A DNA stretch of 64,000 nt from an uncultured Acidobacteriota bacterium (GCA_903916735.1 CAIWXX010000120.1:75746-139745), one strand, 5' to 3'; positions 17,731-53,901 are shown, counted from the stretch's first letter. Program-made: numbers and translations. The notes: generated by a model from the letters alone, not told the origin.

Positions 17731-17910
17731 TTTGTGATCCCTAGTTTAACAGCGATTAGTCATTTCATTCAATCTGGTGGCCATGCAATCTCCAGGCCAA
17801 CACACACGCCTTTCTTTCGTCGAGCAATATAGCCCATCGAGTACCCGTGTTAGTGTCCAAACGGCGACACGAAATGGCAAGATCTTCGGAACATGCATTA
17901 TCCCGTCCGA

Positions 17911-18072
17911 ACCTCTTAGGAATGCAGGAAGTAAGGAAACCGGGAACGAACCGACCATCGTCGGCACACCACATTTTCCGTTCCTGCATTCATCTCTTCC
18001 TGCATTCCTGAGAGGTCTGGAGTCGCTCTGTAGTGCGGCCACCGTCTTTGGTTCTGGCTGCGCCAGGTTAGG
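17911..18072 (+). repeat. Copy A of a ~165-nt structured intergenic repeat element (second copy at 58975..59139)
   Basis: About 82% identity with copy B over the ~95-nt core (ccgttcctgcattcat...ttcctgcattcctgagaggtc...gtctttggttctggctgcgccaggttagg). An upstream arm cctcttaggaatgcaggaag is the reverse complement (one G-U) of the core cttcctgcattcctgagagg, so a ~20-bp stem is possible. It lies in an 850-bp gene-free gap. Confidence 0.75.
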
Positions 18073-18586: not shown

Positions 18587-19501
18587 TCAAAGGCGCCTCT
18601 TCCCGGTGTTTTTTTTATGACGGAGAACTGTGGTGATGCCCTGGAGGTCGGGCGGGAGCGGTGCATCGAATTGAACCGGATTCTGATTGGCCGGATGATT
18701 GAACCCCAGATGAGCGGCATGGAGAGCCAGCCGGGGGACAGGCGTCGGGTCGTGCTTGGGGTCTCCATAGAGTGAATCGCCCAGCACAGGGTGTCCCAGC
18801 CAGGTCAGGTGAACACGGACCTGGTGAGTGCGACCCGTACCAAGGGTGGCCTCGATGAGTGTCGCCACTCCGTATCGTTCGATCGGACGCACGCGCGTCT
18901 GTGCATTCTGAGCATCACGTGAGTGAGTGACAACGGCGCGCCGAGCGCCGGGCCGTGGGCGGCCGATCGCACGGTCAATGGCGCATTCTTCCTGCAGGTC
19001 ACCCTGGACAAGCGCCAGATAGCAACGGGAAATTGTGTGCACGCGAAACTGCCTCTGCAGAGAAGTCACTGCCGCGCCGGTCCGAGCCATCACCAGCAGG
19101 CCCGACGTATCACGATCAATCCGATGGACCACCAGAATCTTGCTATGATGACCCACGCGTCGCTTCACTTCATCAGTGACTCGGCTGATGAGTGTGTCCT
19201 TCTCCCGGTCCAAGGTCGGATGCACAAGCAATCCTGGGGGCTTATTGACGACGACGATGTGATCATCCAAAAAAACGATTTCGATGTTTCGCAACATGGC
19301 CTCAGGCACGCGGCGTGGTAGAGCCGGATCATGGGTGATGCGATCGGACGGGCCGAGCACGAGCCCGGGATCGGTGACAATTTCACTGTTGACCATCGCA
19401 TGCCCGACTTCGACTTCTCTTTTGGCGTGAGAGTAGGAAGATCCCAGTATCTGCTGGAGCGATCGTGCAAGGCGAACGGGCGAAGATCCTGAATGAATCA
19501 T
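18587..19501 (-). CDS. RluA-family 23S rRNA pseudouridine synthase (RluD-like) with N-terminal S4 domain
   Basis: HRIDRDTSGLLVMART catalytic Asp motif; THQVRVHL; 304 aa. Confidence 0.8.
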   Translation of the reverse strand: MIHSGSSPVRLARSLQQILGSSYSHAKREVEVGHAMVNSEIVTDPGLVLGPSDRITHDPALPRRVPEAMLRNIEIVFLDDHIVVVNKPPGLLVHPTLDREKDTLISRVTDEVKRRVGHHSKILVVHRIDRDTSGLLVMARTGAAVTSLQRQFRVHTISRCYLALVQGDLQEECAIDRAIGRPRPGARRAVVTHSRDAQNAQTRVRPIERYGVATLIEATLGTGRTHQVRVHLTWLGHPVLGDSLYGDPKHDPTPVPRLALHAAHLGFNHPANQNPVQFDAPLPPDLQGITTVLRHKKNTGKRRL

Positions 19502-19507
19502 GAATGA

Positions 19508-20830
19508 CTATTTATGTAATGTCACGGTGATAGTCTGGGCCGCTTTTTCCACTCGTGCCTTCTGAAACTCCCCGGTGACGCCGTCTGCTTTAAGCGATAC
19601 GGTCCCATCTTTGTCGAGCGCCGCGGGTTCTGCGGGGATTCCCGTGACTGTGAGTTTTCGCACACCGCTGAAAAGCGGGTGATCGCCGGCGGCTTCGCTG
19701 AGAGAGGCGCGGTTGAGAATTTCGACCGACCCGGTGGCATTCCCGAGCTTCACCCAACGCGTGTGGAGAATTTCCGTTTCCGTGACATGCACGACGTTCA
19801 AGGGGTCGAACCCGTTGGGCCAGAGTGGCTCTTCCCTCTCATTATTAATAATGATCTTCCATCCCGGTTGGCTCAGAAAATCCGCTCTCATCCCGGCTCG
19901 TCTCAATCCGACCTCATCGACATCAATTTTTGCTTTCGCCATGGCGGCCTCGGTTTCAACCGGCGTGAAAACGCAGGCCCTGACCGATTTCGCTTTCAAT
20001 GCCAGGGTCAGGATTTCATCGAGGATGGGCTTTGGGTAGCCTCCAGCTTCCAGCTTCGCAGACCAATCAGGGTCGAAGCGATCCAGGAGCTCCGCATAAG
20101 CCCTTCCAATCTCATAGCCGCTCTTTCGAATATCTTCGGCTGGAAAACCTTCTGGAGGAATCGCCGGGGTCTCCCCTAAGACACGAAATTGAAGATAGCA
20201 AGCCAGCCCCTCGTGGATCTCCGTTCCGCGTTCGTATTCGGCCGACGACGCGGGCATTTTGCCGAATCTTTCATGACGAAGAGCCACGGCGGCCGCTGCC
20301 CAGCACAGAGAATCCTCCGGCCTTTCGGAGGACAACGCTCTTCGAAGAGCTTCCGTTTCCAGACGGCGGAGTTGCAGCAGTGATGCATCCTGAATCGGAT
20401 AGACAAAAAGCTCCGCCTCATTGGCCGTCCAGTCGGGATGGCGCTCATCCTGAAACACATGAAAGGCTTCATGGATGGTGATCGCCGCGAGCTTGGGAAT
20501 CTGAATACTCGGGTCCATGATCACTGAAGCCGTCTTGATCTTGCCTAATTCAATCGATGTATTGGCTCGCACATCCGGATGTTGACCGGAGAAAACAAAG
20601 ACTCCATCAAATCCCTCGACCTTCGCGAATTCCATCGGCGGATTGATATGGTGGAAAAGATATGTGTTTTGGCCGTCATAGATGACGAGCGGAATGTTTC
20701 TAGGTTCGAATCCGGGCCAGAGAGGGGTCGCGGCCATCCGATTGTATTCGGCCACCAGAGCCCACGCGGGGCTCGGCGGCGTCAGTGCCGGAGAAGGGAT
20801 GAGAAGCACGGCCATCATTGCAGAAATCAT
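19508..20830 (-). CDS. Secreted putative zinc metallopeptidase (HEXXH motif), otherwise uncharacterised
   Basis: Signal peptide ...SPAWALVA; ITIHEAFHVF HExxH motif; 440 aa with no other recognised domains. Confidence 0.5.
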   Translation of the reverse strand: MISAMMAVLLIPSPALTPPSPAWALVAEYNRMAATPLWPGFEPRNIPLVIYDGQNTYLFHHINPPMEFAKVEGFDGVFVFSGQHPDVRANTSIELGKIKTASVIMDPSIQIPKLAAITIHEAFHVFQDERHPDWTANEAELFVYPIQDASLLQLRRLETEALRRALSSERPEDSLCWAAAAVALRHERFGKMPASSAEYERGTEIHEGLACYLQFRVLGETPAIPPEGFPAEDIRKSGYEIGRAYAELLDRFDPDWSAKLEAGGYPKPILDEILTLALKAKSVRACVFTPVETEAAMAKAKIDVDEVGLRRAGMRADFLSQPGWKIIINNEREEPLWPNGFDPLNVVHVTETEILHTRWVKLGNATGSVEILNRASLSEAAGDHPLFSGVRKLTVTGIPAEPAALDKDGTVSLKADGVTGEFQKARVEKAAQTITVTLHK

Positions 20831-21317
20831 CGGACTCCTCCTTCAGAATGCTAACGACCACAGTCGATTGGAGCACTCTTATGCTCTGCCAGTTTAACAC
20901 AGCAGGAGGAGTCGAAAGCAGTGTCAAAATGTGTTAGAAACGACAGGGGGGTTTAAATCCCTTTCGTGACGAAATAAAATTGCGGCATGAAGAGTCCATG
21001 CACAGCCGTTGGCCACTTATCAAGATCTGATCAATTTGCCTGAGCGTCTGATTGGCCAGATCATCGATGGTGATCTTGATTCAAGGCCGCGTGAAAGTCG
21101 GCAATAATGCACTGATTTTGAGAAATAGTAAAACAAAAAGTAAAAGGCGGAAATTTGGGGAGCAATCAGCTTCACACTTAGTCCGGCCTTTAATTCTTAT
21201 CGATCAGCCTGCCGCTGAGTAGATTTCCGCATCTCTCTCCGGATAGCTTTCGTGGAAATGCTCGAAAACAGCCGCACATTTTTGGTGATAAGGATCCGGC
21301 GAATAGGCGCGCGGCAG

Positions 21318-21608
21318 TCAGTTATCGAGCATGTCCGTGATTGCAAGTTTGAGCTGCGAGCGGGCGGAGGATTTCTGCCGCCAATTGAGGACGAGCAACT
21401 GTTTGAGTCTTGTCAGGAGCTCCCGCGCTACCTTTCCAATTTCGGCGCGTTCTTCCGTGGTCAGGTTCGGTGCAGGGCGAGTGAGGATGTCGAAGATGAC
21501 CAACTCCTCCTCCGTCATATTTTCGCGGACGTGGCGTTGCTGCTCGTCGGTCAGAATGCGGCTCAGTGCGATCAATTCGTTGAATAGTTTCTGAGTGTCG
21601 GCTCGCAA
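21318..21608 (-). pseudogene. Remnant of the type I restriction enzyme R subunit (HsdR) C-terminal domain
   Basis: 96-aa ORF (...EELVIFDILTRPAPNLTTEERAEIGKVARELLTRLKQLLVLNWRQK...) resembles the conserved HsdR C-terminal helical domain. There is no upstream helicase/nuclease portion. Confidence 0.5.
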
Positions 21609-21705
21609 GCCGCTTGTAGATGAAACCCTCCTATTGCGTATTTCACGCGAGATTGACCCCTGAGATAATTGCCGGACCTTCTTGAACGCATCGTTCTCAC
21701 GGAGT

Positions 21706-23000
21706 TCATGCCAAGACCTTGATCAGGATTTCCTTGCGCCCATCCAGGTACATCGCAGCTTTGGGCAAGATCACCCGGCGGTAAAGAAGGACCGAGAGTG
21801 CGAGCAGTGGGGCCATGACCCACCACGGCGGCCATGGGGACAGCCGTGCGGCCGCCACGTAGTTTCCCCGCCGAAAATCTGCACGCCGAGTGCCACGGCG
21901 GACCAGGCTACCACGATCCACATTGCGGGAGGCCGGGTCTGGTTCCTGCCCACTAACCCGCTCATGGGCAAACGCCACGGCATGCACGAGCTGATCCAGT
22001 GTCCAAAGGCCACTTGAAATGTGAACAGGCACCCCGATAGGCAAAGACCCGAGACAGCCTGTGCTGGACTGACGAGGCCGCTGAGGGCCATCGTCGCCAT
22101 GAACATCGCGGCCTGGACACCGCGCCGTAGATCGCAAGGCCGAGTGCCTTGCCCCCCAGCAGATCGTGGGAAGGGATGGGCAGAAGAAGAAGAGGCTTCA
22201 CGCCGGGGCCGTCGAGGCCGAATTGGTTGAGTTGCAGCGCATAGGCGCTGATGCTCAGAAGGGTGAAGGCTGCTGGGACGATCCAGATCATCGAATGGGA
22301 CAGCGGTCCCCTCATGAGTCCCAAGGATCCGAAGGAAATCATGAGGGACAAGACAAGGCCTGCCTTGCCTACGTGACTCCGCAGAAGCGTGCGGCAGCGC
22401 AGGGCCGCCACGCCATGACACTCCGGGAAGAGAAGGTCCACAGTCTTTGGTTCCCCGCCTTTGGGGGCCGGGCGCAACGCCTGCGGTTCTGCCTCGCGCT
22501 TCAGCACATGGGCAGTGCCCAGGAAAAGCAGAAACAGTGTACATGCCGGATATGCCTGCCGGATCAGGGCCAGGACCCGGCGACCTTCGAGTGCATCACC
22601 AATAACTCGAATGGATTGGGTGGATGGCATCGCATCGCATCGAGGATCTCCAGGAGGGTCGCGGTGGGCGGCGGGATCAAGCTCATGTTCGGATCGGATG
22701 TGAGCACAAAACCGATCCCGCCTAGAACGGCGATCAAGACCAGGGCCGTTCTAAAGTGCTTGACAACATGCGTCTTCAGGCTCGTCATAAGAAGGCGCAT
22801 GCCTAGGATTGCACTGACGGTACCCAGCCATGGCAGTAGGAGCAGGGGAAATATTCAAGGGTTCGCGATTCCAAGACCCAAGAGTAAGAACGTCGTGAGC
22901 AATGTGAATATAAGGGGCGCGAGGCTTCCGAGCACCAGGGGTACTGCGAGAAGAAACCCTAGCACGCCCAGAACGACCCCGTGGGCGGTGCTGCGCGACT
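21706..23000 (-). pseudogene. Frameshifted polytopic membrane permease (ABC-2-type-like)
   Basis: Hydrophobic Leu/Ala-rich coding runs through three reading frames (ORFs 22751-, 22564-, 21962-, 21771-, 21706-). It has at least three frameshifts and one in-frame stop. The plus-strand ORF 22166..23044 is Arg-rich antisense noise. Confidence 0.4.
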
Positions 23001-23165
23001 ATTCGAAATCCCTGAGATGGCGGCTCCAAGTGGTCTGGAGATGAACGATTGGCAAAGCGCGGATCGGAGAAACCACAGCCACGACAAGTCCCCGCTCTGA
23101 GCGCCTCCCACGAGATCCACGAACAGACTCTCCAGGCTCTCGGCACTGTCCCGGGCCCTCAGCTC
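23000..23165 (-). pseudogene. C-terminal remnant of an ABC transporter ATP-binding protein
   Basis: Hand translation gives ...LLSFGPIAELRARDSAESLESLFVDLVGG..., typical of the extreme C-terminus of ABC-2 ATPases. It is truncated upstream by the RhuM fragment. Confidence 0.3.
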
Positions 23166-23196
23166 CGCAATCGGGCCGAAGCTCAGGAGCCTACCT

Positions 23197-23646
23197 TCAT
23201 CCAGGATAGCGACGATAAGGCTGGTCGGAGTTTTTCATACGCTCGTCATCGAGGACGAAGCCCTTGACGATGAACTCACGGAGCTTTTGCGTTGCCCAGA
23301 TACGGAAGCGGATCGCGACGGCACTCTTGTTGCGGTAGCCGACCGAGATGATCATGTCGAGGTTATGGAATTCGAGCGACCGGCTGACTTGGCGGTGCCC
23401 CTCTTTCCGAACTATTAAGAATTCCTTAAGAGTTGTCGGTAGCGACAATTCGCCGTCTTCATAGACGTTTCGGATATGCATACTGATATTGGGAATCGTT
23501 GTCTGGAACAGCTCGGCCATATGCTGCTGGGTGAGCCAAACGGTCTCGTTCTCCAGCCGCACATCAATTTTCATCCGTCCGTCTTCAGTGGAATAGACCA
23601 GTAACTGACCCTTTGCGTTTGGGGTGGGGTCTTCTGGATCGTTCAT
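23197..23646 (-). pseudogene. N-terminal fragment of a RhuM-family protein (often found in type I RM loci), truncated at ~149 aa
   Basis: ...LLVYSTEDGRMKIDVRLENETVWLTQQHMAELFQTTIPNISMHIRNVYEDGEL...MIISVGYRNKSAVAIRFRIWATQKLREFIVKGFVLDDERMK matches the RhuM N-terminus. Full-length proteins are ~330 aa. Confidence 0.6.
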
Positions 23647-23772
23647 GAGGCGATCTCCTCTGGAACTCGATCGCTTACCATTTTCCCGACGTCATTGAGG
23701 TTTCCCTTTAAACCCACCCCTTTTGACGACGAATTGCCCCATATCCATTCATGCAATCTTCGTGACGTCCGA

Positions 23773-24525
23773 TCACCGCGTACTCATACTTCGGCTTTCC
23801 AGGATCATCCGCTCTTTGATCCTCGCCACATCGCGCGCCGAGAGTTCACGATACTCCCCGGGTTGAAGCGACCGCAGCTTGAAAGGGCCGATTGAAAGGC
23901 GCTTCAGCTTCTGCACAGGGTGGCCGATCTGGTCGAACATAATTCGTATCTGATTTTTCTTACCTTCCCTCAGCGTCAACTCCAGCCAGAGGTTCCCTTT
24001 GGGGCTATGCTCGACAATTCGCACACCCACCGGCTGGCAGCGCTCTCCCGCCACCACCGGGCCACGCGCAATCGATTCCAGCTTTCTCTCATCCGGTGTG
24101 CCGGTCACTTTCGCACTATAGATTTTCTCGATGCCAAAGCGCGGATGAGCCAACATCTGAGCGAATTCGCCGTCGTTGGTGAAGAACATAAGCCCGGTCG
24201 TGTGGTAGTCAAGCCTCCCGGCCATGAAAAATTTCAAGAACTCACGCGGCAGAATGTCGAAAACCGTGCGACGGCCAAAACGATCTCCCGAGGCCGAGGC
24301 CACTCCATCCGGCTTGTGGAAGAGGATGTATCGCACATGCTCGGGACCTCGACGAAGAGGTTTTCCATCGACTGTGATCTTGTCCACATCAGGATCCACC
24401 GTCATGCCCAGATGCTCGACGACCCGCCCATTGATCTTCACACGCCGCGCGACAATGAACTCTTCCGAATGTCGCCGCGAACCGAATCCGGCGTCTCTTA
24501 GCAGCTTCTGAAGCCTGATCCGCAT
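23773..24525 (-). CDS. RsuA/RluB-family pseudouridine synthase with S4 domain
   Basis: S4 domain RLQKLLRDAGFGSRRHSEEFIVARRVKINGRVV; catalytic GRLDYHTTGLMFFTNDG. Likely start at MRIRLQK (ORF track 24576). Confidence 0.8.
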   Translation of the reverse strand: MRIRLQKLLRDAGFGSRRHSEEFIVARRVKINGRVVEHLGMTVDPDVDKITVDGKPLRRGPEHVRYILFHKPDGVASASGDRFGRRTVFDILPREFLKFFMAGRLDYHTTGLMFFTNDGEFAQMLAHPRFGIEKIYSAKVTGTPDERKLESIARGPVVAGERCQPVGVRIVEHSPKGNLWLELTLREGKKNQIRIMFDQIGHPVQKLKRLSIGPFKLRSLQPGEYRELSARDVARIKERMILESRSMSTR

Positions 24526-24776
24526 GAGGTTAGTTCCAGGTTCGCGGTTTCCAGTGACCGGCGCCGTGCGTCTCATAAAGACACACTCCTATTCAGTGCC
24601 CAGGGAATCCTGTTGTCTGTTGCCATTAAACATCGACGTCGTCGAAGACGAAATGCCTCCATGTCCACGTTCGTAATGGTTATGGCGGAGGGCTGGAGGA
24701 TAAGACCCCGCCGAATACAATCGAGCATCTCCACCTCTACGCGCCGGGAACCGGGAGCCGGCAAATGGAAACGAGT

Positions 24777-25577
24777 TCATTCAACTTCAATTTTCTCGGC
24801 CTCCGGCATTGCATCCACCGGCTCGTCCGGTTCGCTCTGCTTTTCGGCCATGACCTGTTCAGTTTCCGCGCCGGTCATTTCATCGACAGGTGATTCACGG
24901 GGTTCCTCCCCTGATATCACCTCTTCACCAGCTAAAATCTCCACCGGCGTGTCCCAAGATTGATCGAGCTCACGCTGTTCGCCAGGTTGGCTCTCAGCCG
25001 CCGCCGCCGCCGTTTCGGCAGACTCCTCCAATAATTCAATCCCGCTCTGTTCGGCCAGGCTCTGGAACTCCTCGAGGCTCGGCAGATCTTTCAGACTGTT
25101 AAGCCCGAATCGATGGAGAAACTCCTTGCTGGTGCCATAGAGAATCGGGTTCCCGACAACTTTCTTTCGCCCCATGATACGGATGAGGTTTTTATCGAGC
25201 AGGGTTTTAATGACGCCGGTAGAATTGACTTTGCGCAGCGCCAGAATTTCGGGGAGAGTGATCGGCTGCTTGTAGGCGATGATGGCCAGAGTCTCCAGAG
25301 CTGCGAGCGTCAGGCGGTCCTGGTTCTTGGACTTGAGCATTTTTCGGATCCAGTCATCGGCCGAGGGGATCGTGAGGATCTGGTAGCCACCGGCCATCTG
25401 TCCCAGAATGAGGCCTCGTGTTCCGGATTCGAAATCCAGGTTGAGAGACCTTAGAGCCGCTTCCACTTCCTCCGGTGGATATTCATCCAGGATTCGCTGC
25501 AAATCCCGAAGGCTGAGCGGGTCGCTGCTGACGAAAATGAGTGCTTCGATCAGGGGCTTGATTTCTTCGACTGCCAT
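24777..25577 (-). CDS. scpB: Segregation and condensation protein B
   Basis: IEALIFVSSDPLSLRDL...GQMAGGYQILT...TLAALETLAIIAYKQPIT; acidic C-terminal tail. Confidence 0.85.
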   Translation of the reverse strand: MAVEEIKPLIEALIFVSSDPLSLRDLQRILDEYPPEEVEAALRSLNLDFESGTRGLILGQMAGGYQILTIPSADDWIRKMLKSKNQDRLTLAALETLAIIAYKQPITLPEILALRKVNSTGVIKTLLDKNLIRIMGRKKVVGNPILYGTSKEFLHRFGLNSLKDLPSLEEFQSLAEQSGIELLEESAETAAAAAESQPGEQRELDQSWDTPVEILAGEEVISGEEPRESPVDEMTGAETEQVMAEKQSEPDEPVDAMPEAEKIEVE

Positions 25578-25727
25578 TTTTTTGCTTTGCTCGATTCGTT
25601 CGCAAGGAGGAGAGCCGGACTGTGAAAGCTCAGCTCTTCAATTCCGAAGAATTAATCCTGATTGGATCCTCTGTGACTCCATTACGATTCGCGAACTCTC
25701 CTTCTATGAAATTTACCACACGTTCGT

Positions 25728-26450
25728 TCATTTCGTCCTGACGATCCTTATCTGCCCGAATGATCCGTTCTGGTAGACCTTGAGGAAGGATTGGCGGGCC
25801 AGTTCCAGAAGCGCCAGAAACGCCACAATCTGTTCCAGCCGATGAGTCAGCCCGCCGAAGTATCCGGTAAAATCCAGTGAGCCGTGTTCTTCGAGCAGGC
25901 CGCGGAGTTCCTCAAGTTTCTCCTCAACCGTGAAGAGAACCGGCGACAGCTCGACCGCCGGTTCACGTTCCTCTTTGAGGATCTCGAAAAAAGCAGTGGC
26001 CAGCTGGTAGGCGTTCATCTCGACAGGCTCGCCCGGAATTTCCTCAATAAAATCCCACCCAATACGGCCACGCGGCCAGCTGGATTGCCGGAGCTGCGCT
26101 CGCTCGGCCAGGAAATGGCCGACGGCCTTGAAACGCTGGTACTCGATGAGCTGCCGTACTAATTCCTCGCGGGGGTCTTCTTCGACGCCATCCTCACCGA
26201 TCACCGGACGTGGAAGCAGCATTCGGCTTTTGATGTGAATCAATGTGGCGGCCATGAGGAGGAACTCGCCTTCAACATCCAGGTTATGGTTTTGCAGCTG
26301 AGCGAGGTAGACCAGATATTGATCTGTCACGCGCGCAATAGGAATGTCGTAGATATCGATCTCTTCCTTCTTGATAAGATGGAGCAGCAGATCCAGAGGC
26401 CCTTCGAAGACCTCAAGCATCAGCCGGCAGGGGTGGCTCTCCTGGAGCAT
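25728..26450 (-). CDS. scpA: Segregation and condensation protein A
   Basis: FEGPLDLLLHLIKKEEIDIYDIPIARVTDQYL...EFLLMAATLIHIKSRMLLP. Confidence 0.85.
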   Translation of the reverse strand: MLQESHPCRLMLEVFEGPLDLLLHLIKKEEIDIYDIPIARVTDQYLVYLAQLQNHNLDVEGEFLLMAATLIHIKSRMLLPRPVIGEDGVEEDPREELVRQLIEYQRFKAVGHFLAERAQLRQSSWPRGRIGWDFIEEIPGEPVEMNAYQLATAFFEILKEEREPAVELSPVLFTVEEKLEELRGLLEEHGSLDFTGYFGGLTHRLEQIVAFLALLELARQSFLKVYQNGSFGQIRIVRTK

Positions 26451-26456
26451 CTGTCG

Positions 26457-27449
26457 CTACGCCTTGAGCAGGCCGATCGCCGCGCGGACCTGCTCCATCG
26501 TTTGCCGGGCGACCCGTCTGGCTCGATCGGCGCCCTGGTGCAAGACAGCCAGGATGCGGTCAGGGTGCATCAGCAGCTCATCTCGACGCCGCTTCATCGG
26601 ATCCATCACCGGGTGCATGCGGTCGAGCAAAACCTGTTTGCAATCGAGGCATCCCCAGCCGGCGGTGCGGCACAGATGTGCCACCTCTTCGCGTTTCTCA
26701 GGCTCAGTGAAAACTTTATGAAGATCGAAAACCGGACAATCTTCGGGCCCGCCCGGATCACTTCGTCGTTTGCGCCTCGGGTCCGTCATCATCTTGCGTA
26801 CCTTGCGATCCAGCTCGGCCGGATCTTCCGCCATGAAAATCGAATTGCCGTAGCTCTTGCTCATCTTCCGGCCATCAGTCCCACGGAGTTTCGGCGACGA
26901 CGATAGAAGCGTTTGAGGCTCGGGGAAGATGTTGCCATAGTAGTTGTTGAAGCGGCGCGTCACTTCGCGCGCCAGTTCGATATGAGGAACCTGGTCCTCA
27001 CCGACCGGCACGACTTCGGCCTTGTACAGAATGATGTCGGCCGTCTGCAGAACTGGATAGCCGAGAAACCCGTATGTCGACAGGTCTTTCCCGGCGAGCT
27101 CCTGCTGCTTCTCTTTGTAGGTCGGCACGCGTTCGAGCCATGGAATGGGAGTGATCATTGAAAGGATGAGGTGCAATTCAGCATGTTCCTGCACGTGGCT
27201 CTGGATGAAAAGTACTGATTTCTCCGGATCGAGCCCGGCGGAAAGCCAATCGGCAGCGACGGCGATCACCGCATCGGCCACCGTGTCCGAACTGTCATAG
27301 GCCGTCGTCAGAGCATGAAGATCGACGATACCATAAAAACATTCATAGGAATCCTGCAGCTGGACCCAGTTCTTCAGCGCTCCGAAGTAGTTGCCGAGAT
27401 GGAGCTGCCCGGTGGGCTGCATGCCGCTGAATATTCGTTTCATAGCCAC
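26457..27449 (-). CDS. trpS: Tryptophan--tRNA ligase
   Basis: Class I aaRS motifs: FSGMQPTGQLHLGNYFGA (HIGH-like) and KMSKS; 330 aa. Confidence 0.9.
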   Translation of the reverse strand: MAMKRIFSGMQPTGQLHLGNYFGALKNWVQLQDSYECFYGIVDLHALTTAYDSSDTVADAVIAVAADWLSAGLDPEKSVLFIQSHVQEHAELHLILSMITPIPWLERVPTYKEKQQELAGKDLSTYGFLGYPVLQTADIILYKAEVVPVGEDQVPHIELAREVTRRFNNYYGNIFPEPQTLLSSSPKLRGTDGRKMSKSYGNSIFMAEDPAELDRKVRKMMTDPRRKRRSDPGGPEDCPVFDLHKVFTEPEKREEVAHLCRTAGWGCLDCKQVLLDRMHPVMDPMKRRRDELLMHPDRILAVLHQGADRARRVARQTMEQVRAAIGLLKA

Positions 27450-47142: not shown

Positions 47143-48004
47143 ATGGCCTTGGTGCTTATGGCAGTTCTGTTGATAATATCGGCGGTGGCCGGCGCTCCGA
47201 TCGAGGATCAGGCCAATGCAGGCATGAGCCCGAACCTGGCGCCGCTTCTGAAAGATCCGATGATGGGAATCCGCATCGAGGCCGCGCAGCGGCTTACCGG
47301 CGTGCCTTCGGAGATGTTGACGGAGCCGCAAACAGATGCCTTCAAGTCGACCATGGCAGAGTACCGGTCAAGCCTGGAGTTTACTGCTGACATGCCTTCC
47401 GACCGATACAATCGGGGCATTCTGGAACAGAGTCTGAACCAATTGGGGGAGGCTGAGCTGTAATACAGAAAAGCACTCGACATCGACGGCCAATTTCTAC
47501 ATGGCAGCCATGAATCTTGCGATTTTGCTCAGCCAACAAGGGCGTAATCCCGAGGCCGAGACGCTTCTGCGACAGGCGGTTGACACAAACCCGCACAACG
47601 CAGCCGCAGCATTCGACCTTGGGCTGCTGCTTGCGGAGATAAGTAATAAGAGCGAGGCGCTGCAGCGGCTCTGCGAAAGGCGCTGCAAGCTGACCCGACC
47701 ATGGCGCAAGCCGCGTATCTGCCGCCGGGCGGCCGAGCAACGCCCGGGCGAGCCCAAGTATGCATTCGCCCGCGCCTACTACCAGCTTCGAAATGGAAAG
47801 GAAAAGGACGCAGTGGCCACGTTGGACCCGCTGGTGAAAACCTATCCATCCTACGGCGATGCCGTCCTGATGCTCGACGGGCTCTACGAGAAACATGGCC
47901 GTGTGAAGGAGGCCGCCGAGGTCTACGATCGGGCTTTGGTCACGACAGGGCTGCCTGAGGAGTACAGATCACAGATCGCGGCGCGGAGGAATGCCCTGCA
48001 CTGA
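47143..48004 (+). pseudogene. Frameshifted TPR-repeat protein gene
   Basis: TPR-like coding is spread over three frames (ORFs 47143-, 47501-, 47701-) with stops between, e.g. ...LNQLGEAEL* / YRKALDIDGQFL / AAMNLAILLSQQGRNPEAE... / ...AYYQLRNGKEKDAVATLDPLVKTYPSYGDAVLML... Confidence 0.5.
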
Positions 48005-48061
48005 TCGGATTCCATTTGTGCCTGAACACCCTTACCAGACGCAGCATCTTGTCGCAATCCT
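47855..48061. repeat. Copy 1 of a ~207-bp direct repeat (TPR gene 3' end plus downstream sequence)
   Basis: ggcgatgccgtcctgatgctcgacgggctctacgagaaacatggccgtgtgaaggaggccgccgag...ctgatcggattccatttg...gcatcttgtcgcaatcct is repeated at 49540..49746 with ~87% identity. Confidence 0.8.
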
Positions 48062-48276
48062 CGCAGCCGCACGGAGAGTCCAGCCCGCGTCATGCACATG
48101 GAAACGCGGCCTGAAGTCCGCGCTACGAGAGTTGAAGGCGAACGGTGCACAGCCCCCGGCTCTCGAACAGCACCCGGTGTCGCCGAAGCAACGGCAGTCG
48201 CTGAAACATACATCTTGGCAAGTTAGCCATAATGGAATATGCTCCATAATAGATTAACTAAACAGGAGGAATATCC

Positions 48277-49440
48277 ATGATACAGACGCTGCCTCGGCTG
48301 CTGAAGATGAAGCTTCCGAAGGGGCAGTCCACCTTCTTGTGGGGACCAAGGAAAACAGGTAAGACCACTTTCCTCAAAGCAGCCTTCCCAAACAGCCTGA
48401 GCTATGATCTGCTTCAAACCGACCTTTTCCTCGAGCTCGTCAAGCGCCCCTCTCTACTGCGGGAGCAGCTTCTTGCGGCATCCCCGAAGCAATTGGCGGA
48501 GCCGGTCATTATCGACGAAGTGCAGAAAGTGCCTCAGCTGCTTGACGAAATTCACTGGCTGATCGAAAACAAGGGTATGCGGTTTATCCTGTGCGGCTCC
48601 AGCGCAAGGAAATTAAAACGGGGGAAGGCGAATCTGCTCGGAGGTCGCGCCTGGCGCTACGAGATGCACCCGTTTGTTTCACCAGAGGTGGCTGACCTTG
48701 ATCTGCTCAGAGCGCTCAACCGGGGAATGATACCCTTGCATTACATGCAGGTGGAATTCCGCAAGTCGCTGCAGGCTTATGTTCAGGACTATCTCAAAGA
48801 GGAGGTGTTCGATGAAGGATTGACCCGGAATATCCCGGCCTTCTCCCGGTTCTTCGATGCGATGGGCTACTCTCACGGAGAACTGACAAATTATGCGAAC
48901 ATAGCACGGGACTGCGGCGTCGACGCGAAAACCGTCAAGGAGTATTACCAGATCCTTGTCGATACCCTTCTTGGCACAATGATCGAGCCGTACAAGAAGC
49001 GGCAGGACCGCAATGTGATAATCAGGGCTGGCAAATTCTATCTGTTTGATGTCGGTGTTGCCGGGGCCATCACCCACCGCCAGATCCCGCAGGAGAAAGG
49101 CGAGCAGTTCGGAAAGGCAATCGAACATTTCATCCTGATGGAACTGCTTGCCCATCGTACGTACCGGGAGCTGAACTACGATGTGAATTTCTGGCGGACG
49201 AAGTCAGGATTGGAAGTGGATTTTATTCTAGGTCAGGGAGAAGTGGCTATCGAAATAAAAGGGACAAGCCGGGTCGATAGCACAGACCTGCGTCCACTCA
49301 AGACGTTTATCCAGGAGTACCGGCCTGCAAGAGCGTTTGTTGTCTGCAACGAAAATGTTGCTCGGGTGCACGAGGATATTCGTATTTTGCCGTGGCATGA
49401 ATTTCTTAGAATGTTGTGGAACGGGGAAGTGATATCGTGA
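48277..49440 (+). CDS. AAA+ ATPase of the COG1373 / DUF4143 family
   Basis: Walker A FLWGPRKTGKTT. Walker B VIIDEVQKVP. C-terminal DUF4143-like region. Visibly lower GC than flanks (about 50-53%). Bracketed by the 207-bp direct repeats. Confidence 0.75.
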   Translation: MIQTLPRLLKMKLPKGQSTFLWGPRKTGKTTFLKAAFPNSLSYDLLQTDLFLELVKRPSLLREQLLAASPKQLAEPVIIDEVQKVPQLLDEIHWLIENKGMRFILCGSSARKLKRGKANLLGGRAWRYEMHPFVSPEVADLDLLRALNRGMIPLHYMQVEFRKSLQAYVQDYLKEEVFDEGLTRNIPAFSRFFDAMGYSHGELTNYANIARDCGVDAKTVKEYYQILVDTLLGTMIEPYKKRQDRNVIIRAGKFYLFDVGVAGAITHRQIPQEKGEQFGKAIEHFILMELLAHRTYRELNYDVNFWRTKSGLEVDFILGQGEVAIEIKGTSRVDSTDLRPLKTFIQEYRPARAFVVCNENVARVHEDIRILPWHEFLRMLWNGEVIS

Positions 49441-49539
49441 ATGGAGAAAAATGTAATGAACGAAAGAAACAACCTCAACACGAGACAAGAGTCGCGTCGC
49501 GCCGCGCCGGATCCGCTGATGATCGACTTTCCGTCAGAC

Positions 49540-49746
49540 GGCGATGTTGTCCTGATGCTCGGCGGGCTCTACAAGAAACATGGCCGTGTGAAGGAGGCCG
49601 CCGAGATCTACGATCGGGCTTTGGTTCCGCCCGGGCTGCCTGAAGCATATAAAGCGCGGATCGCTGCGCGGAGGGATTCTCCGTGCTGATCGGATTCCAT
49701 TTGGGCCTGACCCCGCGCGCCAGACGCCGCATCTTGTCGCAATCCT
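49540..49746. repeat. Copy 2 of the ~207-bp direct repeat; includes a duplicated TPR C-terminal fragment (ORF 49441..49689)
   Basis: See copy 1. ORF 49441 ends ...GDVVLMLGGLYKKHGRVKEAAEIYDRALVPPGLPEAYKARIAARR, paralleling ...GDAVLMLDGLYEKHGRVKEAAEVYDRALVTTGLPEEYRSQIAARR. Confidence 0.8.
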
Positions 49747-50261
49747 GCGTGGAGCCAGAGCTGCCGTGAGGAAAATTGAACTCAGCGATGCCCTCTGGAT
49801 GTCACTCCCTGCGGCGACCGAACGGCCTCCCAATGGCCACCGTCTTGCAGAGCTCAAGCCGGAACAGGTTCAGTTTCCTTTTACGAGATCACCAAAAAAT
49901 CCGCGTCGACATCACGAACGGGGGACAGCAGTCACACGATTTGATCTGCGATGACGCCACTCGTGAACGGCTCGTGGCAACTCGTGCAGATGCCGGCAGG
50001 CACATTCTTGACCAGCTCGACAGCATGAGTGAACAAAAAGGGCACGTTAGCCCTGCCTTGCCTGAGCCGTTCACCGCAAAGCGGACAACAGCTATTTGGC
50101 GAATCAACTGCATTTTCCGGGCAGTATCCATCTCATAGGAATACGATACCAACGACACTGACATAACCCCAGGGTTACCGCAGCGCCGGAGGCGCGAAGG
50201 AACCCCTGAGATTCACCATGCCATGTTGACTAGTCTGGTCAGACCAAGTAAAATCAATTCC

Positions 50262-50540
50262 ATGCAGAGAACCTATTCAATTTACGAAGCGAAGGCCAAG
50301 TTCAGCGAGATCATCCGAGCGGTGAAGATGCGCCGGAAGGTCGTTGTCACCGAAAGAGGTACCCCGGTCGCCGAGGTAGTGCCATATCAGGAAGAGGCTG
50401 AGGAATCGATGTCAGGACGGCTGGAGAGACTTACCCGAATGGGGGCTATTGTCCCAGCTGCCGGCAGATTCAGTGCAAAAACCATGAAAGTGCTCCCGGG
50501 CGCTTCAGAGCGATTTCTGAAGGAGGACCGTGGCGATTAG
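50262..50540 (+). CDS. Type II antitoxin, Phd/YefM family
   Basis: MQRTYSIYEAKAKFSEIIRAVKMRRKVVVTERGTPVAEVVPY matches the Phd/YefM fold. It overlaps the downstream PIN toxin gene by 11 nt. Confidence 0.75.
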   Translation: MQRTYSIYEAKAKFSEIIRAVKMRRKVVVTERGTPVAEVVPYQEEAEESMSGRLERLTRMGAIVPAAGRFSAKTMKVLPGASERFLKEDRGD

Positions 50541-50937
50541 GCCGATTGCAGCCTATATCGACACCTCGCTGCTGATCCACGTCAGATTCGAGGAAGCGGG
50601 GCGCCGGTTCGCGCGGCGCATCGAAGCGTACGACCATCTGTTCTCGGCCGAATTGCTCCTCGCCGAGATGTACGCATTCGCCATGCGTGAGGGCGTCGAC
50701 CGCGTCGATGTGCTCGAAGCGGTCAATGGAATTTCATGGGTCATTCCTGACCGTCCGCTCGCAGGCGAGCTGGCCCGAGTCATCGAACAAAAATACGTGC
50801 GCGGCGCCGATCTCTGGCATCTTGCATGCGCCTGCTATCTATCCCCCGTGTCGGAGAGCGTCGCTTTTCTCACGAGAGATTCTGTTCAGCTGCAAATCGC
50901 CCACCGCCTCGGACTACAGACCCCGGAGTTTGTCTGA
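50530..50937 (+). CDS. PIN-domain toxin (VapC-like)
   Basis: AYIDTSLLI (first acidic residue), ...AELLLAEM..., ...FLTRDSVQ (conserved D). GTG start after AGGAGG; 135 aa. Confidence 0.75.
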   Translation: MAIRPIAAYIDTSLLIHVRFEEAGRRFARRIEAYDHLFSAELLLAEMYAFAMREGVDRVDVLEAVNGISWVIPDRPLAGELARVIEQKYVRGADLWHLACACYLSPVSESVAFLTRDSVQLQIAHRLGLQTPEFV

Positions 50938-51210
50938 AACCACACTGCCCCTCGTCCCAAGCAAGAAATGGGTGTCTCACAATTATTAAGATCAATATGA
51001 AGGGTATTTCGGCCACATCAAATCCGACGTCAAAACTGGCTACGCCATCTTATTCTGCCCCAGCCCTGATGCTATGGTTTTTGCCTTTGCCTTTTTATTT
51101 TCCCAAATCGGCGCCTCATCCGCGGACTTGGGCAACGCACTGGGGATCGCCTCCGTCGATTGCCTTGAACTGGAGAACTTGTGATCCGCCGGATGATGTT
51201 GCAGCGGGAA

Positions 51211-52335
51211 TCAGACCAGGCCCTTCAGGAGTGTGAGAGCCTGGGCCACCCGTATCCCTTCCGGGCTCTGGTAATCCTTCGAGCCCGCTGCCGTAACCTG
51301 CCAGGCTTCGCATGCCGGGAACCGGGCTTTCATGTATCGCAGGCCCTTGTCGATCTCCTGATCCCCCCACTTGCACTCCACCATGAGGATGGGCTTCGTT
51401 CCTTCGACAACCACAAAATCGACCTCCCTTCCATCCGTGTCTCTGAAGTACCTCAGCTCGACGTCCCTCCCGTGGACATCCTGCTCCCAGTGAGCCCATT
51501 TGAGAAGGTGCGCGGCGACGAGGTTCTCGAAACGTGGCGCATCGCCCGGCACGAGCGTCCAGTCCAGGTGATAGTGCTTTTGTTCCTTTTTGACGGCGCG
51601 GATCCGCGGTGCTCCGAAGGGGGAGAGACGAAACACGGCATAGAGCCGTTCGAGGATCCCGAGCCAGCGACCAACGGTCTTATGGCTGAGCTGCAGGTCC
51701 TCGCGGATGGCGTTGATAGAGAGCGGGGAGCCGACCAGCTCGGGCAGGCGGATCATGAGCAACTCGAGGTTTCCGAGATCCTCGACTCGTTCGAGGCTGG
51801 TGATGTCCTCCCGCACGAGCCGGCTGCGGTATTCCCTAGACCACCGGCGGGATTCCACATCCGAACCTCCAAGAAAGGGCTCGGGGAACCCTCCGAGTCT
51901 CAGAAGATCGTTGAAGTCGCGAATAGTGACCATGTCCAACTCGGCCACCGAGAAGGGGTGTAGCCGGAGGAGATGGTAGCGGCCTTGAAGGGAATCCCCT
52001 CCATAGCGGTACAGGTCGAGGCGTGCGCTGCCAGTGACAAGGATTTTCCGCTGCGGCCGCCGGCTGTCGAACAATCCCTTGATGTAGCCGCGCCATGAAC
52101 GGTATTTATGTATCTCGTCGAAGATCCACAGAGGTCCGGGCGGAAGTTCGCGCCTGAGTATTCTCTCGCGGTCCTGCGCGACGTCCCAGTCAAGATATCC
52201 GGCACGTCCACCAGGCAGGCTCCTGACGAGAGTCGTCTTGCCGACCTGGCGCGGCCCGGCGATGAAAACCATCTTACGCCTGAGATCCTGCACGACCTGC
52301 GGCGCGAGATATCGCCGGAACAGCCTTGCCGCCAT
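51211..52335 (-). CDS. AAA+ ATPase of the COG1373 / DUF4143 family (second, GC-rich paralog)
   Basis: Walker A IAGPRQVGKTT. Walker B IFDEIHKY. C-terminal DUF4143-like; 374 aa. Confidence 0.75.
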   Translation of the reverse strand: MAARLFRRYLAPQVVQDLRRKMVFIAGPRQVGKTTLVRSLPGGRAGYLDWDVAQDRERILRRELPPGPLWIFDEIHKYRSWRGYIKGLFDSRRPQRKILVTGSARLDLYRYGGDSLQGRYHLLRLHPFSVAELDMVTIRDFNDLLRLGGFPEPFLGGSDVESRRWSREYRSRLVREDITSLERVEDLGNLELLMIRLPELVGSPLSINAIREDLQLSHKTVGRWLGILERLYAVFRLSPFGAPRIRAVKKEQKHYHLDWTLVPGDAPRFENLVAAHLLKWAHWEQDVHGRDVELRYFRDTDGREVDFVVVEGTKPILMVECKWGDQEIDKGLRYMKARFPACEAWQVTAAGSKDYQSPEGIRVAQALTLLKGLV

Positions 52336-52903
52336 GCGCAGAATCTACTGGTATTTTGGCCTACTGTCAAATTTACTCACGGCGATTTTATCCTCATATC
52401 GAAAACGCCCGTTGCGCGCGAACTTAATGTATAGCCCATTCAGAGCGACGAACTGACGGTCTCCACCCGGTCCATGCTCCAGATCATGGTGGGACTTTCC
52501 CGATGTGTGGAAGTGCCGGCGGCTCATTGGGAGCGCAAACACACTCCGCCGCTTATGGCGGATCAGGAAAAAGCAAACCCTATGCTGCAGGCCCGTATCG
52601 ATCCGGAAAAGCCGGACGACTCCTTCGCCGCCGTGCCGTACGACGGGCGCCTGATTCTGGATCGTCAACGATGACTGGCTCTCCAAGCGCTCCTTTGTCG
52701 CAATCATGTTCCTGTTCACCATAGCCGGAGCCACCGATCAAGATCGGGGCCCAATTCTCACCATCCCAACGCAGTGAACGGCTGATCGGGCTCGATTCCA
52801 TTGAGGAGCGAATAGCGAGTATCTCGATTCCGGAGAATGAATACGGATAATTTAAGAGATCATTGGCACTGCCTTCTTTTTTCCGCCCACCATACATGGC
52901 AGC

Positions 52904-53901
52904 ATGTCTCGACGCTGTGACATTGTAGGGAACAGCCATGAACGGCCCCATGAGAAGCAGGATAACGAGTGGCTCGCACGCAATCCGGCGCAGCATGTGT
53001 GTGCGGTCAGCATTCTGGCTCTTCTTGCAGCGCTGAGTGTAGCCTGCCCTTCGCCCGCTTGGTGCTCGCCCAAGGTGGATGTGCTCATCCTGCTGAGCGG
53101 GGATCACATCACTGGTGAAATTGAAAAACTCGACCTCGGCACTCTCACATTCAAGACCGATGACATGGGTACACTGAGCATCGAGTGGGAGAAGGTGGGT
53201 GAGTTGAATGCGCCGGAGGTTTTTATAGTTGAAACGGGCGACGGATCACGCTATTTCGGGTCACTGACATCGCCCGCACCTGGAAGGATCACCGTATCGA
53301 AGAGCCAGAAGCAGATCCTTCTGGACATGAACTCCGTGGTGCGGATGTATCCCATCAAGCGCACGTTCTTCCGACGAATCGACGGCAATGTGAACATCGG
53401 TTTGAGCTACAGCAAGCGAAGTTTCGTGGCATCGCTCTCCTTAGACTCACTCGCCACGTTGGGCAATGCTGAGAAAAATCATCCCGCCAGACGCTATCGC
53501 TCCTTTACACGCGCTTCCTGCGCGACAGATGGATCATCAGCGGCGTCGGGCGATTCGAACGAAACCCTCATCTCGGGTTCGACTTTCGGGCGACCAGCGG
53601 TATCGGATTCGGGGGATTTCTTGTGCAGACAAACCGGCAGATCTTCACCGCGGTTGCCGGAGCGGCCATCTCGCGGGAGAAACCCATGGATGCAGCCAAT
53701 CTCAACTCTGTCGCAGCTGTGATCCTGATGAACTATCAGCTTTTCATCCACGAGACTCCGAAGACAAACATCAATACTACGCTCATGGTCCTCCCTCCAT
53801 TTACCGGCCAGGAATGTCGACCGGATTCTGCACCAGGAGCCCGAATCGATTTTACAATTTCACAAGGATGTCACGCCGGATTTGGAAAAGATAATTCTTA
53901 A
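52904..53901 (+). pseudogene. Possible frameshifted secreted/outer-membrane protein (DUF481-like)
   Basis: Signal peptide AVSILALLAALSVA. A plausible domain reaches ...RIDGNVNIGLSYSKRSFVASLSLDSLATLG, then Arg-rich nonsense. A beta-strand-like continuation appears in another frame (53623: ...NLNSVAAVILMNYQLFIHETPKTNINTTLMVLP). Confidence 0.3.

What the first reader, a model, noticed from the sequence alone, without database searches (positions are those of the whole stretch)
20930..23700. Decayed accessory island between rluD/metallopeptidase and rluB: HsdR C-terminal stub, frameshifted ABC-2 permease, ABC ATPase stub, RhuM N-terminal stub
Within 2.8 kb no intact gene exists. Recognisable pieces are a 96-aa HsdR C-terminus, a membrane permease broken by at least three frameshifts, the last ~40 aa of an ABC ATPase, and the first 149 aa of a RhuM-family protein. 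RhuM-family genes and HsdR belong to type I restriction-modification loci, so this looks like the wreck of a type I R-M defence island that landed in, and destroyed, an ABC-2 transporter operon. The region also has lower-GC patches (20930..21250).
Basis: partly seen in the sequence, partly recalled or inferred. Interest (0 to 1): 0.55.

Follow-up and report, generated by a model that had tools for sequence, protein, structure and literature searches.

The report
Eroded remnants of acquired genes
A 2.9 kb stretch between two housekeeping genes of an uncultured bacterium holds only broken leftovers of four acquired genes (two phage-defence genes and a two-gene ABC transporter), which is an ordinary gene graveyard and not a working system.

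Summary
All remnants lie on the minus strand between rluB (ends 23773) and an HExxH protein gene (starts 20830).

- RhuM-family N-terminus: 23646..~23217, aa 1-144 of about 348, 76-78% identical to intact homologues.
- ABC ATPase remnant: fused directly to the RhuM piece. It is the last 47 aa of a DrrA-like ATPase (23216..23076).
- Permease pseudogene: 23082..21706. It carries 2 premature stops, an in-frame loss of about 66 codons, and 3 frameshifts at short repeats.
- HsdR remnant: the last ~134 aa (21605..21216), itself cut by a stop at 21320-21318.

The sequence is identical in assemblies from other samples, so the lesions are not assembly errors.

The only syntenic relative found has rluB directly next to the HExxH gene, 247 bp apart. 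The whole block is therefore accessory DNA.

The ABC piece lies between the two defence stubs, has the most foreign G+C (0.60-0.64 against 0.543), and is absent from that relative. No hsdM or hsdS is in the window.

Best reading: an acquired mosaic block trimmed by deletions and slippage, now non-functional. This is ordinary and of low interest.

The parts
23217..23646 (-). RhuM-family (PADLOC candidate PDC-S05) N-terminal remnant, aa 1-144 of about 348. The ORF as called runs to 23197, and its last 5 codons are read-through into the next remnant. GGAG lies 8 nt upstream of the ATG.
   Evidence: PF13310 E 5.6e-27, model 2-71/252. 76-78% identity to aa 1-144 of P0137. PADLOC PDC-S05 E 5.9e-57. 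DNA read.
23217..23220 (-). Junction between RhuM codon ~144 and ABC ATPase codon ~204. The bases CCTT could belong to either parent (possible microhomology).
   Evidence: Both homologies end or begin within these bases. The microhomology is inferred.
23076..23216 (-). C-terminal 47 codons (aa 204-250 of 250) of a DrrA-like ABC ATPase. Where the homologue has its stop codon the window reads TGG (Trp), so the frame runs on.
   Evidence: tblastn 72% identity, E 9e-20. The partner ATPase's best NCBIfam match is TIGR01188 drrA, E 5.4e-66, below its cut-off. DNA read.
21706..23082 (-). Pseudogene of an uncharacterised ~530-aa polytopic membrane protein that is encoded after, and overlapping, an ABC ATPase in intact loci. 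GTG start at 23082, native stop at 21708-21706.
   Evidence: 12 intact homologues of 524-534 aa. Context in L002-L004. Segmented tblastn.
22999..23001 (-). Premature stop codon 1 in the permease remnant.
22855..22857 (-). Premature stop codon 2 in the permease remnant.
22921..22932 (-). Approximate site of an in-frame loss of about 66 codons (homologue residues ~55-120).
   Evidence: tblastn segments aa 1-54 and aa 121 onward abut here in the same frame.
22627..22641 (-). Frameshift 1: GATGC occurs three times in tandem. Two copies would restore ...LDAMPSTQSIR..., matching the homologues (a 5-nt tandem duplication).
22117..22120 (-). Frameshift 2 at GTGT (+2 or -1).
21863..21869 (-). Frameshift 3 at GGGGAAA (+2 or -1).
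21606..21705 (-). 100-nt spacer of unknown origin between the permease stop and the start of HsdR homology. It contains the second junction.
21216..21605 (-). Type I restriction R-subunit (HsdR) C-terminal remnant, aa ~947-1080 of 1080, interrupted by an in-frame stop at 21320-21318.
   Evidence: PF11867 E 1.2e-13. PADLOC REase_I. Plasmid HsdR matches. tblastn 21605..21216, 38% identity, E 1.6e-15. Stop codon.
20831..21215 (.). Unassigned low-G+C (0.46) non-coding stretch upstream of the HExxH protein gene. It probably includes that gene's promoter and leader.
   Evidence: No family hit.
23647..23772 (-). 126-nt spacer between the rluB stop and the RhuM stub, forming the left edge of the block. 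A co-occurring strain variant (L090) carries three SNPs here.

Best explanation
The 2.9 kb between rluB and the HExxH-protein gene is non-functional accessory DNA. It is a mosaic of four gene remnants left after horizontally acquired genes were trimmed by deletions and then decayed by replication slippage and point mutation.

Shown:
- The four homologies.
- The exact lesions.
- A direct fusion of RhuM codon ~144 to ABC ATPase codon ~204.
- The reproducibility of the sequence across samples.
- The absence of the block from the one syntenic relative.

Inferred:
- One deletion, possibly through CCTT microhomology, removed the RhuM C-terminal 200 aa, anything that lay between the two genes, and the first ~200 aa of the ATPase (Walker A, Walker B and promoter). 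This silenced the transporter.
- A second event removed about 950 aa of HsdR.
- The permease then accumulated slippage frameshifts, stops and an internal deletion.

Nothing here can restrict DNA or transport anything. The RhuM stub still has an SD and an open frame, and may be translated as a by-product of read-through from rluB.
For: Fragment identities.

Lesions. All three frameshifts sit on short repeats: (GATGC)x3, GTGT and GGGGAAA.

Junction.

Reproducibility:
- L088, from a different sample, is 100% identical across the whole block.
- L001 and L089 are 100% identical.
- L090 is a 99.85% strain variant with the same truncated RhuM.
- The exact RhuM stub is on 18-19 contigs from NCBI, ENA and Logan.

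Accessory nature:
- L005 has rluB-247 bp-HExxH gene-rluD.
- The ABC remnant has G+C 0.60-0.64 against 0.543.
- Intact ABC homologues sit in unrelated neighbourhoods.

No partner genes: no hsdM, hsdS or other RhuM pieces in the 64 kb. The flanks are housekeeping genes.

No rival gene on the other strand. No Rfam family or tRNA in the block.
Against: - The 'empty site' rests on one relative, which is only 52-70% identical in the flanking proteins. No closer relative exists in the databases searched.
- No integrase, tRNA, or flanking direct repeats mark an insertion.
- The order and number of deletion events cannot be reconstructed.
- The RhuM stub has no lesion in 144 codons. This is compatible with recent truncation (Poisson P about 0.15 at the permease's lesion density, my calculation from the counts), but it does not exclude selection.
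- Contigs of three other assemblies end inside 22713-22958. Population variants of this block may therefore exist that I could not see.
Confidence: 0.82

Rival explanations
1. A resident ABC-2 transporter operon at this site was destroyed when a type I R-M (plus RhuM) defence island inserted into it, and the island then decayed.
For: Defence-gene and ABC-gene remnants are interleaved. RhuM genes do occur inside type I R-M operons (PMC9881135).
Against: - Topology is the reverse of what an insertion predicts. The ABC piece is internal and the defence stubs are external.
- The syntenic relative L005 has no ABC operon between rluB and the HExxH gene.
- The ABC remnant has the most foreign G+C.
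- Intact homologues of the ABC pair lie in unrelated contexts.
Confidence: 0.07
2. A single type I R-M operon (hsdM-rhuM-hsdS-hsdR) once sat here. Its interior was replaced by an incoming ABC fragment in one illegitimate recombination event, leaving RhuM-N and HsdR-C as its two ends.
For: Both stubs are on the same strand in the order RhuM then HsdR, as in operons with RhuM between core genes (PMC9881135). Their G+C (0.52, 0.54) is close to each other and unlike the ABC piece.
Against: - There is no hsdM remnant in the 126 nt upstream of RhuM.
- The closest full-length RhuM homologues are not in type I R-M loci.
- Nothing distinguishes this from two separate deletions in a larger mosaic island.
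Confidence: 0.3
3. Assembly or sequencing artefact. The permease is really intact and the frameshifts are errors or a chimeric join.
For: Two of the three shifts are at short homopolymer or dinucleotide runs. Several contigs from other assemblies end inside the block.
Against: - The sequence is identical in different samples and assemblers.
- Two in-frame stops, a 5-nt tandem duplication and a 66-codon loss are not typical read errors.
- The ATPase needed for function is 80% missing.
- The exact RhuM stub, including the junction read-through, is on 18-19 contigs.
Confidence: 0.03
4. The RhuM N-terminal stub is retained as a working small protein, such as a stand-alone DNA-binding domain, while the rest is junk.
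For: - Open frame with GGAG 8 nt before the ATG.
- No lesion in 144 codons at 76-78% identity.
- PADLOC holds short PDC-S05 models of 138-174 positions.
- A 176-aa homologue recurs on 15 contigs, the longest 91 kb.
Against: - The stub ends in 5 out-of-frame codons of another gene.
- It lacks about 180 of the 252 positions of PF13310.
- The absence of lesions is not statistically unusual.
- No close relatives exist for a dN/dS test.
Confidence: 0.07

Closest known systems
Type I restriction-modification systems (HsdR/HsdM/HsdS), HsdR C-terminal domain PF11867
   Same: The remnant 21605..21216 aligns to the last ~134 residues of annotated HsdR proteins.
   Different: About 88% of HsdR is missing, including the nuclease and motor domains. 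The remnant has an internal stop. No hsdM or hsdS is in the 64-kb window. It is a relic, not a system.
RhuM family (PF13310; PADLOC candidate single-gene defence PDC-S05)
   Same: 76-78% identity over aa 1-144 of ~348-aa family members. Start codon and SD are retained.
   Different: Only model positions 2-71 of 252 remain. The C-terminal ~200 aa are deleted and replaced by read-through into an ABC ATPase remnant.
DrrA-type ABC ATPase with a downstream ~530-aa membrane partner (ABC-2-like exporters)
   Same: Same gene order and overlapping stop/start architecture as the intact pairs in L002-L004. The ATPase tail is 72% identical and the permease 36-54% identical by segment.
   Different: The ATPase lacks residues 1-203. 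The permease has 6 disabling lesions. The permease family matches no Pfam or NCBIfam model, including the ABC-2 membrane families, so 'ABC-2 permease' is a label by context only.
Decaying genomic or defence islands (pseudogene remnants of horizontally acquired genes)
   Same: Accessory block absent from a syntenic relative, mosaic G+C, defence-gene fragments, and deletional junctions.
   Different: No integrase, tRNA target, or flanking repeats were found. It sits between housekeeping genes.

Membership tests
Type I R-M system | Full-length HsdR with nuclease and SF2 motor domains | tested here: not met
   Only aa ~947-1080 of 1080 align, with an in-frame stop.
Type I R-M system | hsdM and hsdS present with hsdR | tested here: not met
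   tblastn with plasmid HsdM/HsdS found nothing in the window (HsdS is divergent, so this is a weak test). Pfam scans of large ORFs show no methylase or S subunit. The rest of the genome was not available.
RhuM family (PF13310) | Significant match to the family model | tested here: met
   95.1 bits against a cut-off of 33.7, E 5.6e-27.
RhuM family (PF13310) | Complete domain (about 252 model positions, ~348-aa protein) | tested here: not met
   Model positions 2-71 only. Homology ends at aa 144.
ABC transporter (DrrA-like ATPase plus membrane partner) | ATPase with Walker A, signature and Walker B motifs | tested here: not met
   Only aa 204-250 remain.
ABC transporter (DrrA-like ATPase plus membrane partner) | Uninterrupted membrane-subunit reading frame | tested here: not met
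   3 frameshifts, 2 stops, and a ~66-codon loss.
Pfam ABC-2 membrane families | Match of the permease, or its intact homologues, to an ABC-2 membrane model | tested here: not met
   No Pfam or NCBIfam hit for the joined translation, P0001, P0003 or P0006. One precomputed PF09847 tag on P0003 was not reproduced.
Pseudogene | Disabling lesions relative to intact homologues, reproducible in independent data | tested here: met
   identical in L001, L088 and L089.
Genomic island | Absent from the syntenic site in relatives | tested here: met
   L005 has rluB-247 bp-HExxH gene-rluD. This is a single, distant relative.
Genomic island | Mobility hallmarks (integrase, tRNA target, flanking direct repeats) | tested here: not met
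   None found.

The most novel reading that the evidence does not exclude
The truncated RhuM N-terminal domain (144 aa plus a 5-aa tail) is kept by selection as a stand-alone small protein, for example a DNA-binding regulator or a decoy derived from a candidate defence gene. It would be expressed by read-through from rluB, while the rest of the block is junk.
Probability: 0.06. Interest if true: 0.35.

Novelty: already known. Interest (0 to 1): 0.1.

Why it matters
It matters little beyond correct annotation. The block should be annotated as four pseudogene fragments, not as 'hypothetical proteins' of 74-257 aa as the public gene calls have it. It also documents that this uncultured lineage once carried a RhuM-type candidate defence gene, a type I restriction enzyme and a DrrA-type exporter at a housekeeping locus and has since lost them. 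The clean RhuM|ATPase fusion and the slippage-type frameshifts are textbook examples of how acquired genes erode.

Tried and rejected
- Genome-collection scan with the single HExxH protein found no relative.
- The profile scan gave 80 loci, none syntenic. Locus comparison therefore rests on L005 alone.
- Pfam and NCBIfam on each permease ORF fragment and on the joined translation gave nothing. The family was recognised only through the large protein search.
- A chimeric RhuM+HsdR query was swamped by RhuM hits, so I obtained no close HsdR homologue and could not test co-origin of the two stubs.
- The contexts of the two best RhuM homologues were not type I R-M loci.
- Repeat search found no flanking direct or inverted repeats of note.
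- Rfam and tRNA scans were empty in the block.
- The promoter and terminator scan was at background level.
- A suspected Uma2-like N-terminal peptide on the + strand (21003-21107) got no support from Pfam or plasmid tblastn.
- The 292-aa antisense ORF has no homologue anywhere.
- The host's taxonomy could not be fixed. Neighbours' best hits are Acidobacteriota and Gemmatimonadota MAGs at 52% identity or less.

Full report
**Setting**

The genes of this part of the window are on the minus strand. Reading along that strand:
- rluB: 24576..23773, TIGR00093 and RluB-like.
- The 2.9-kb block in question.
- A 440-aa protein, 20830..19508. It has no Pfam hit, but an invariant HExxH (H120, E121, H124) appears in an alignment of 35 homologues.
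- An RluA/RluD-type pseudouridine synthase, 19501..18587.

Further out on both sides are housekeeping genes:
- scpB, scpA, trpS and an M50 protease.
- Ribosomal protein S1, SppA and HU.
- LpxD, SurE, PCMT, Lnt, RF and MurB.

**Checking the observation**

1. RhuM.
   - ORF 23646..23197 (149 aa) hits PF13310 with E 5.6e-27, but only model positions 2-71 of 252.
   - The family is very well conserved. Full-length members are about 348 aa, and the stub is 76-78% identical to residues 1-144.
   - In PADLOC the family is the candidate single-gene defence PDC-S05.

2. ABC ATPase.
   - Directly after RhuM codon ~144, in another frame, 23216..23076 encodes 47 residues.
   - They are 72% identical to residues 204-250 of a 250-aa ATPase. 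That ATPase's best NCBIfam match is the DrrA subfamily.
   - In intact loci this ATPase is followed by an overlapping permease gene.

3. Permease.
   - None of the ORF fragments, nor their joined translation, matches Pfam or NCBIfam.
   - The joined translation finds 12 intact proteins of 524-534 aa (E 1e-61 to 1e-73).
   - tblastn with two of them maps the remnant to 23082..21706 in separate frame segments.
   - Lesions: stops at 23001-22999 and 22857-22855.
   - Lesions: an in-frame gap of about 66 codons near 22925.
   - Lesions: three frameshifts.
     - The first is a third tandem copy of GATGC (22641-22627). With two copies the frame reads LDAMPSTQSIR, as in the homologues.
     - The other two lie at GTGT (22120-22117) and GGGGAAA (21869-21863).

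4. HsdR.
   - ORF 21608..21318 hits PF11867, E 1.2e-13.
   - It hits PADLOC REase_I positions 908-1001 of 1029.
   - It matches annotated plasmid R subunits.
   - Against a 1080-aa HsdR the alignment covers aa 947-1080 and continues through the stop at 21320-21318 to 21216. The remnant is therefore about 134 aa and is itself broken.

The low-G+C patch is real (0.449, z -2.5). It is no lower than other intergenic gaps of the window.

Nothing else is encoded here:
- The 292-aa ORF antisense to the permease has no family hit and no homologue among 1.84 billion representatives.
- Rfam and tRNA scans are empty in the block.

**Are the lesions real?**

- L088, from a different sample, is 100% identical over 20389-27327 and so covers the whole block.
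- L001 and L089 are 100% identical over their overlaps.
- L090 is a 99.85% strain variant that carries the same truncated RhuM.
- The exact 149-aa product includes the five read-through codons that only exist because of the junction. It is recorded on 18-19 contigs from NCBI, ENA and Logan.

An assembly artefact is therefore very unlikely.

One caveat remains. Three contigs end inside 22713-22958, which may reflect strain heterogeneity there.

**What it is**

The nearest relative with the same flanking genes is a JGI metagenome contig, L005. Its proteins are 70% (RluB), 52% (HExxH protein) and 56% (RluD) identical to the window's. There, rluB and the HExxH gene are separated by only 247 bp.

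No closer relative exists among 5.8 billion clustered proteins. None of 80 GTDB loci with the HExxH gene is syntenic. On this single comparison the whole block is an insertion.

Its composition is mosaic against a window mean of 0.543 (sd 0.038):

| Piece | G+C |
|---|---|
| RhuM stub | 0.52 |
| ATPase stub | 0.64 |
| Permease remnant | 0.60 |
| HsdR remnant | 0.54 |

There is no integrase, tRNA or flanking repeat.

**How it arose (inferred)**

The RhuM|ATPase boundary is a clean fusion at 23220-23217. The bases CCTT fit both parents. This is the footprint of one illegitimate deletion. It removed the RhuM C-terminus, anything that lay between the genes, and the ATPase's first ~200 residues with its promoter.

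A second event, with its junction inside 21606-21705, removed about 950 residues of HsdR.

The transporter remnant then accumulated slippage mutations.

Lesion density is highest in the permease, at 6 per 1.4 kb. At that rate, zero lesions in the 430-nt RhuM stub has a Poisson probability of about 0.15. There is thus no statistical sign that the stub is under selection.

The idea that an R-M island landed in a resident ABC operon does not fit.
- The ABC piece is the inner element and the defence stubs are the outer ones.
- The relative has no ABC operon at the site.
- The ABC piece is the most foreign in composition.
- Intact homologues of the pair lie among peptidase genes elsewhere.

RhuM genes are enriched near, and sometimes inside, type I R-M operons (PMC9881135). 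A common R-M origin of the two stubs therefore remains possible. But the two closest full-length RhuM genes sit next to a 1988-aa AAA_16 protein and next to a DEAD-box helicase. No hsdM or hsdS is in the 64 kb.

**Verdict**

The finding is real, and the fragment identities are correct with refinements. The block is an ordinary graveyard of acquired genes with no function to explain. Interest is low. The only mildly novel reading left open is that the RhuM N-terminal stub survives as a small expressed protein. It keeps GGAG 8 nt upstream of its ATG. I put that reading at about 6%.

Noticed in passing
window 47381-53722: A second accessory-looking patch. Two AAA_14/DUF4143 ATPase genes (48277-49440 +, 51211-52335 -) flank a stretch with no long ORF. 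That stretch contains a Phd/YefM antitoxin plus PIN toxin pair (50223-50540, 50530-50937). Two neighbouring ORFs have no family.
   Followed up: partly
window 22713-22958: Contigs from three other assemblies end inside the permease remnant: L001 at 22713, L090 at 22812, L089 at 22958. This is close to the ~66-codon deletion. It may indicate co-existing alleles in the population, which cannot be resolved without reads.
   Followed up: partly
window 23649, 23728, 23739 (and 25017): The strain variant L090 differs from the window at only four positions in 2.7 kb. Three of them are clustered in the 126-nt rluB-RhuM spacer.
   Followed up: no
window 21003-21107 (+): The short peptide ATYQDLINLPERLIGQIIDGDL resembles, from memory, the N-terminus of Uma2-family endonucleases, and would be a fifth remnant. 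There is no support from Pfam or plasmid tblastn.
   Followed up: partly
window 17906-18021: An imperfect inverted repeat (43-nt arms, 79% complementary, 30-nt loop) lies in the long gap between the Omp85-like gene and rluD. It is unexplained.
   Followed up: no
window 19508-20830 (-): The 440-aa neighbour belongs to a large, unannotated family with an invariant HExxH. There were 741 hits at E<=1e-5, mostly Acidobacteriota and Gemmatimonadota MAGs. It has no Pfam, NCBIfam or PADLOC model.
   Followed up: partly
L002-L004 and proteins P0001-P0012: The intact ~530-aa membrane partner of a DrrA-like ATPase is a family without any Pfam or NCBIfam model. Its gene overlaps the ATPase stop by 10 nt.
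   Followed up: partly
window 23076-23085: Where the homologous ATPase has its stop codon the window reads TGG, and the permease start is GTG (homologues begin with Met). The typical stop/start overlap of the pair is therefore degraded.
   Followed up: yes
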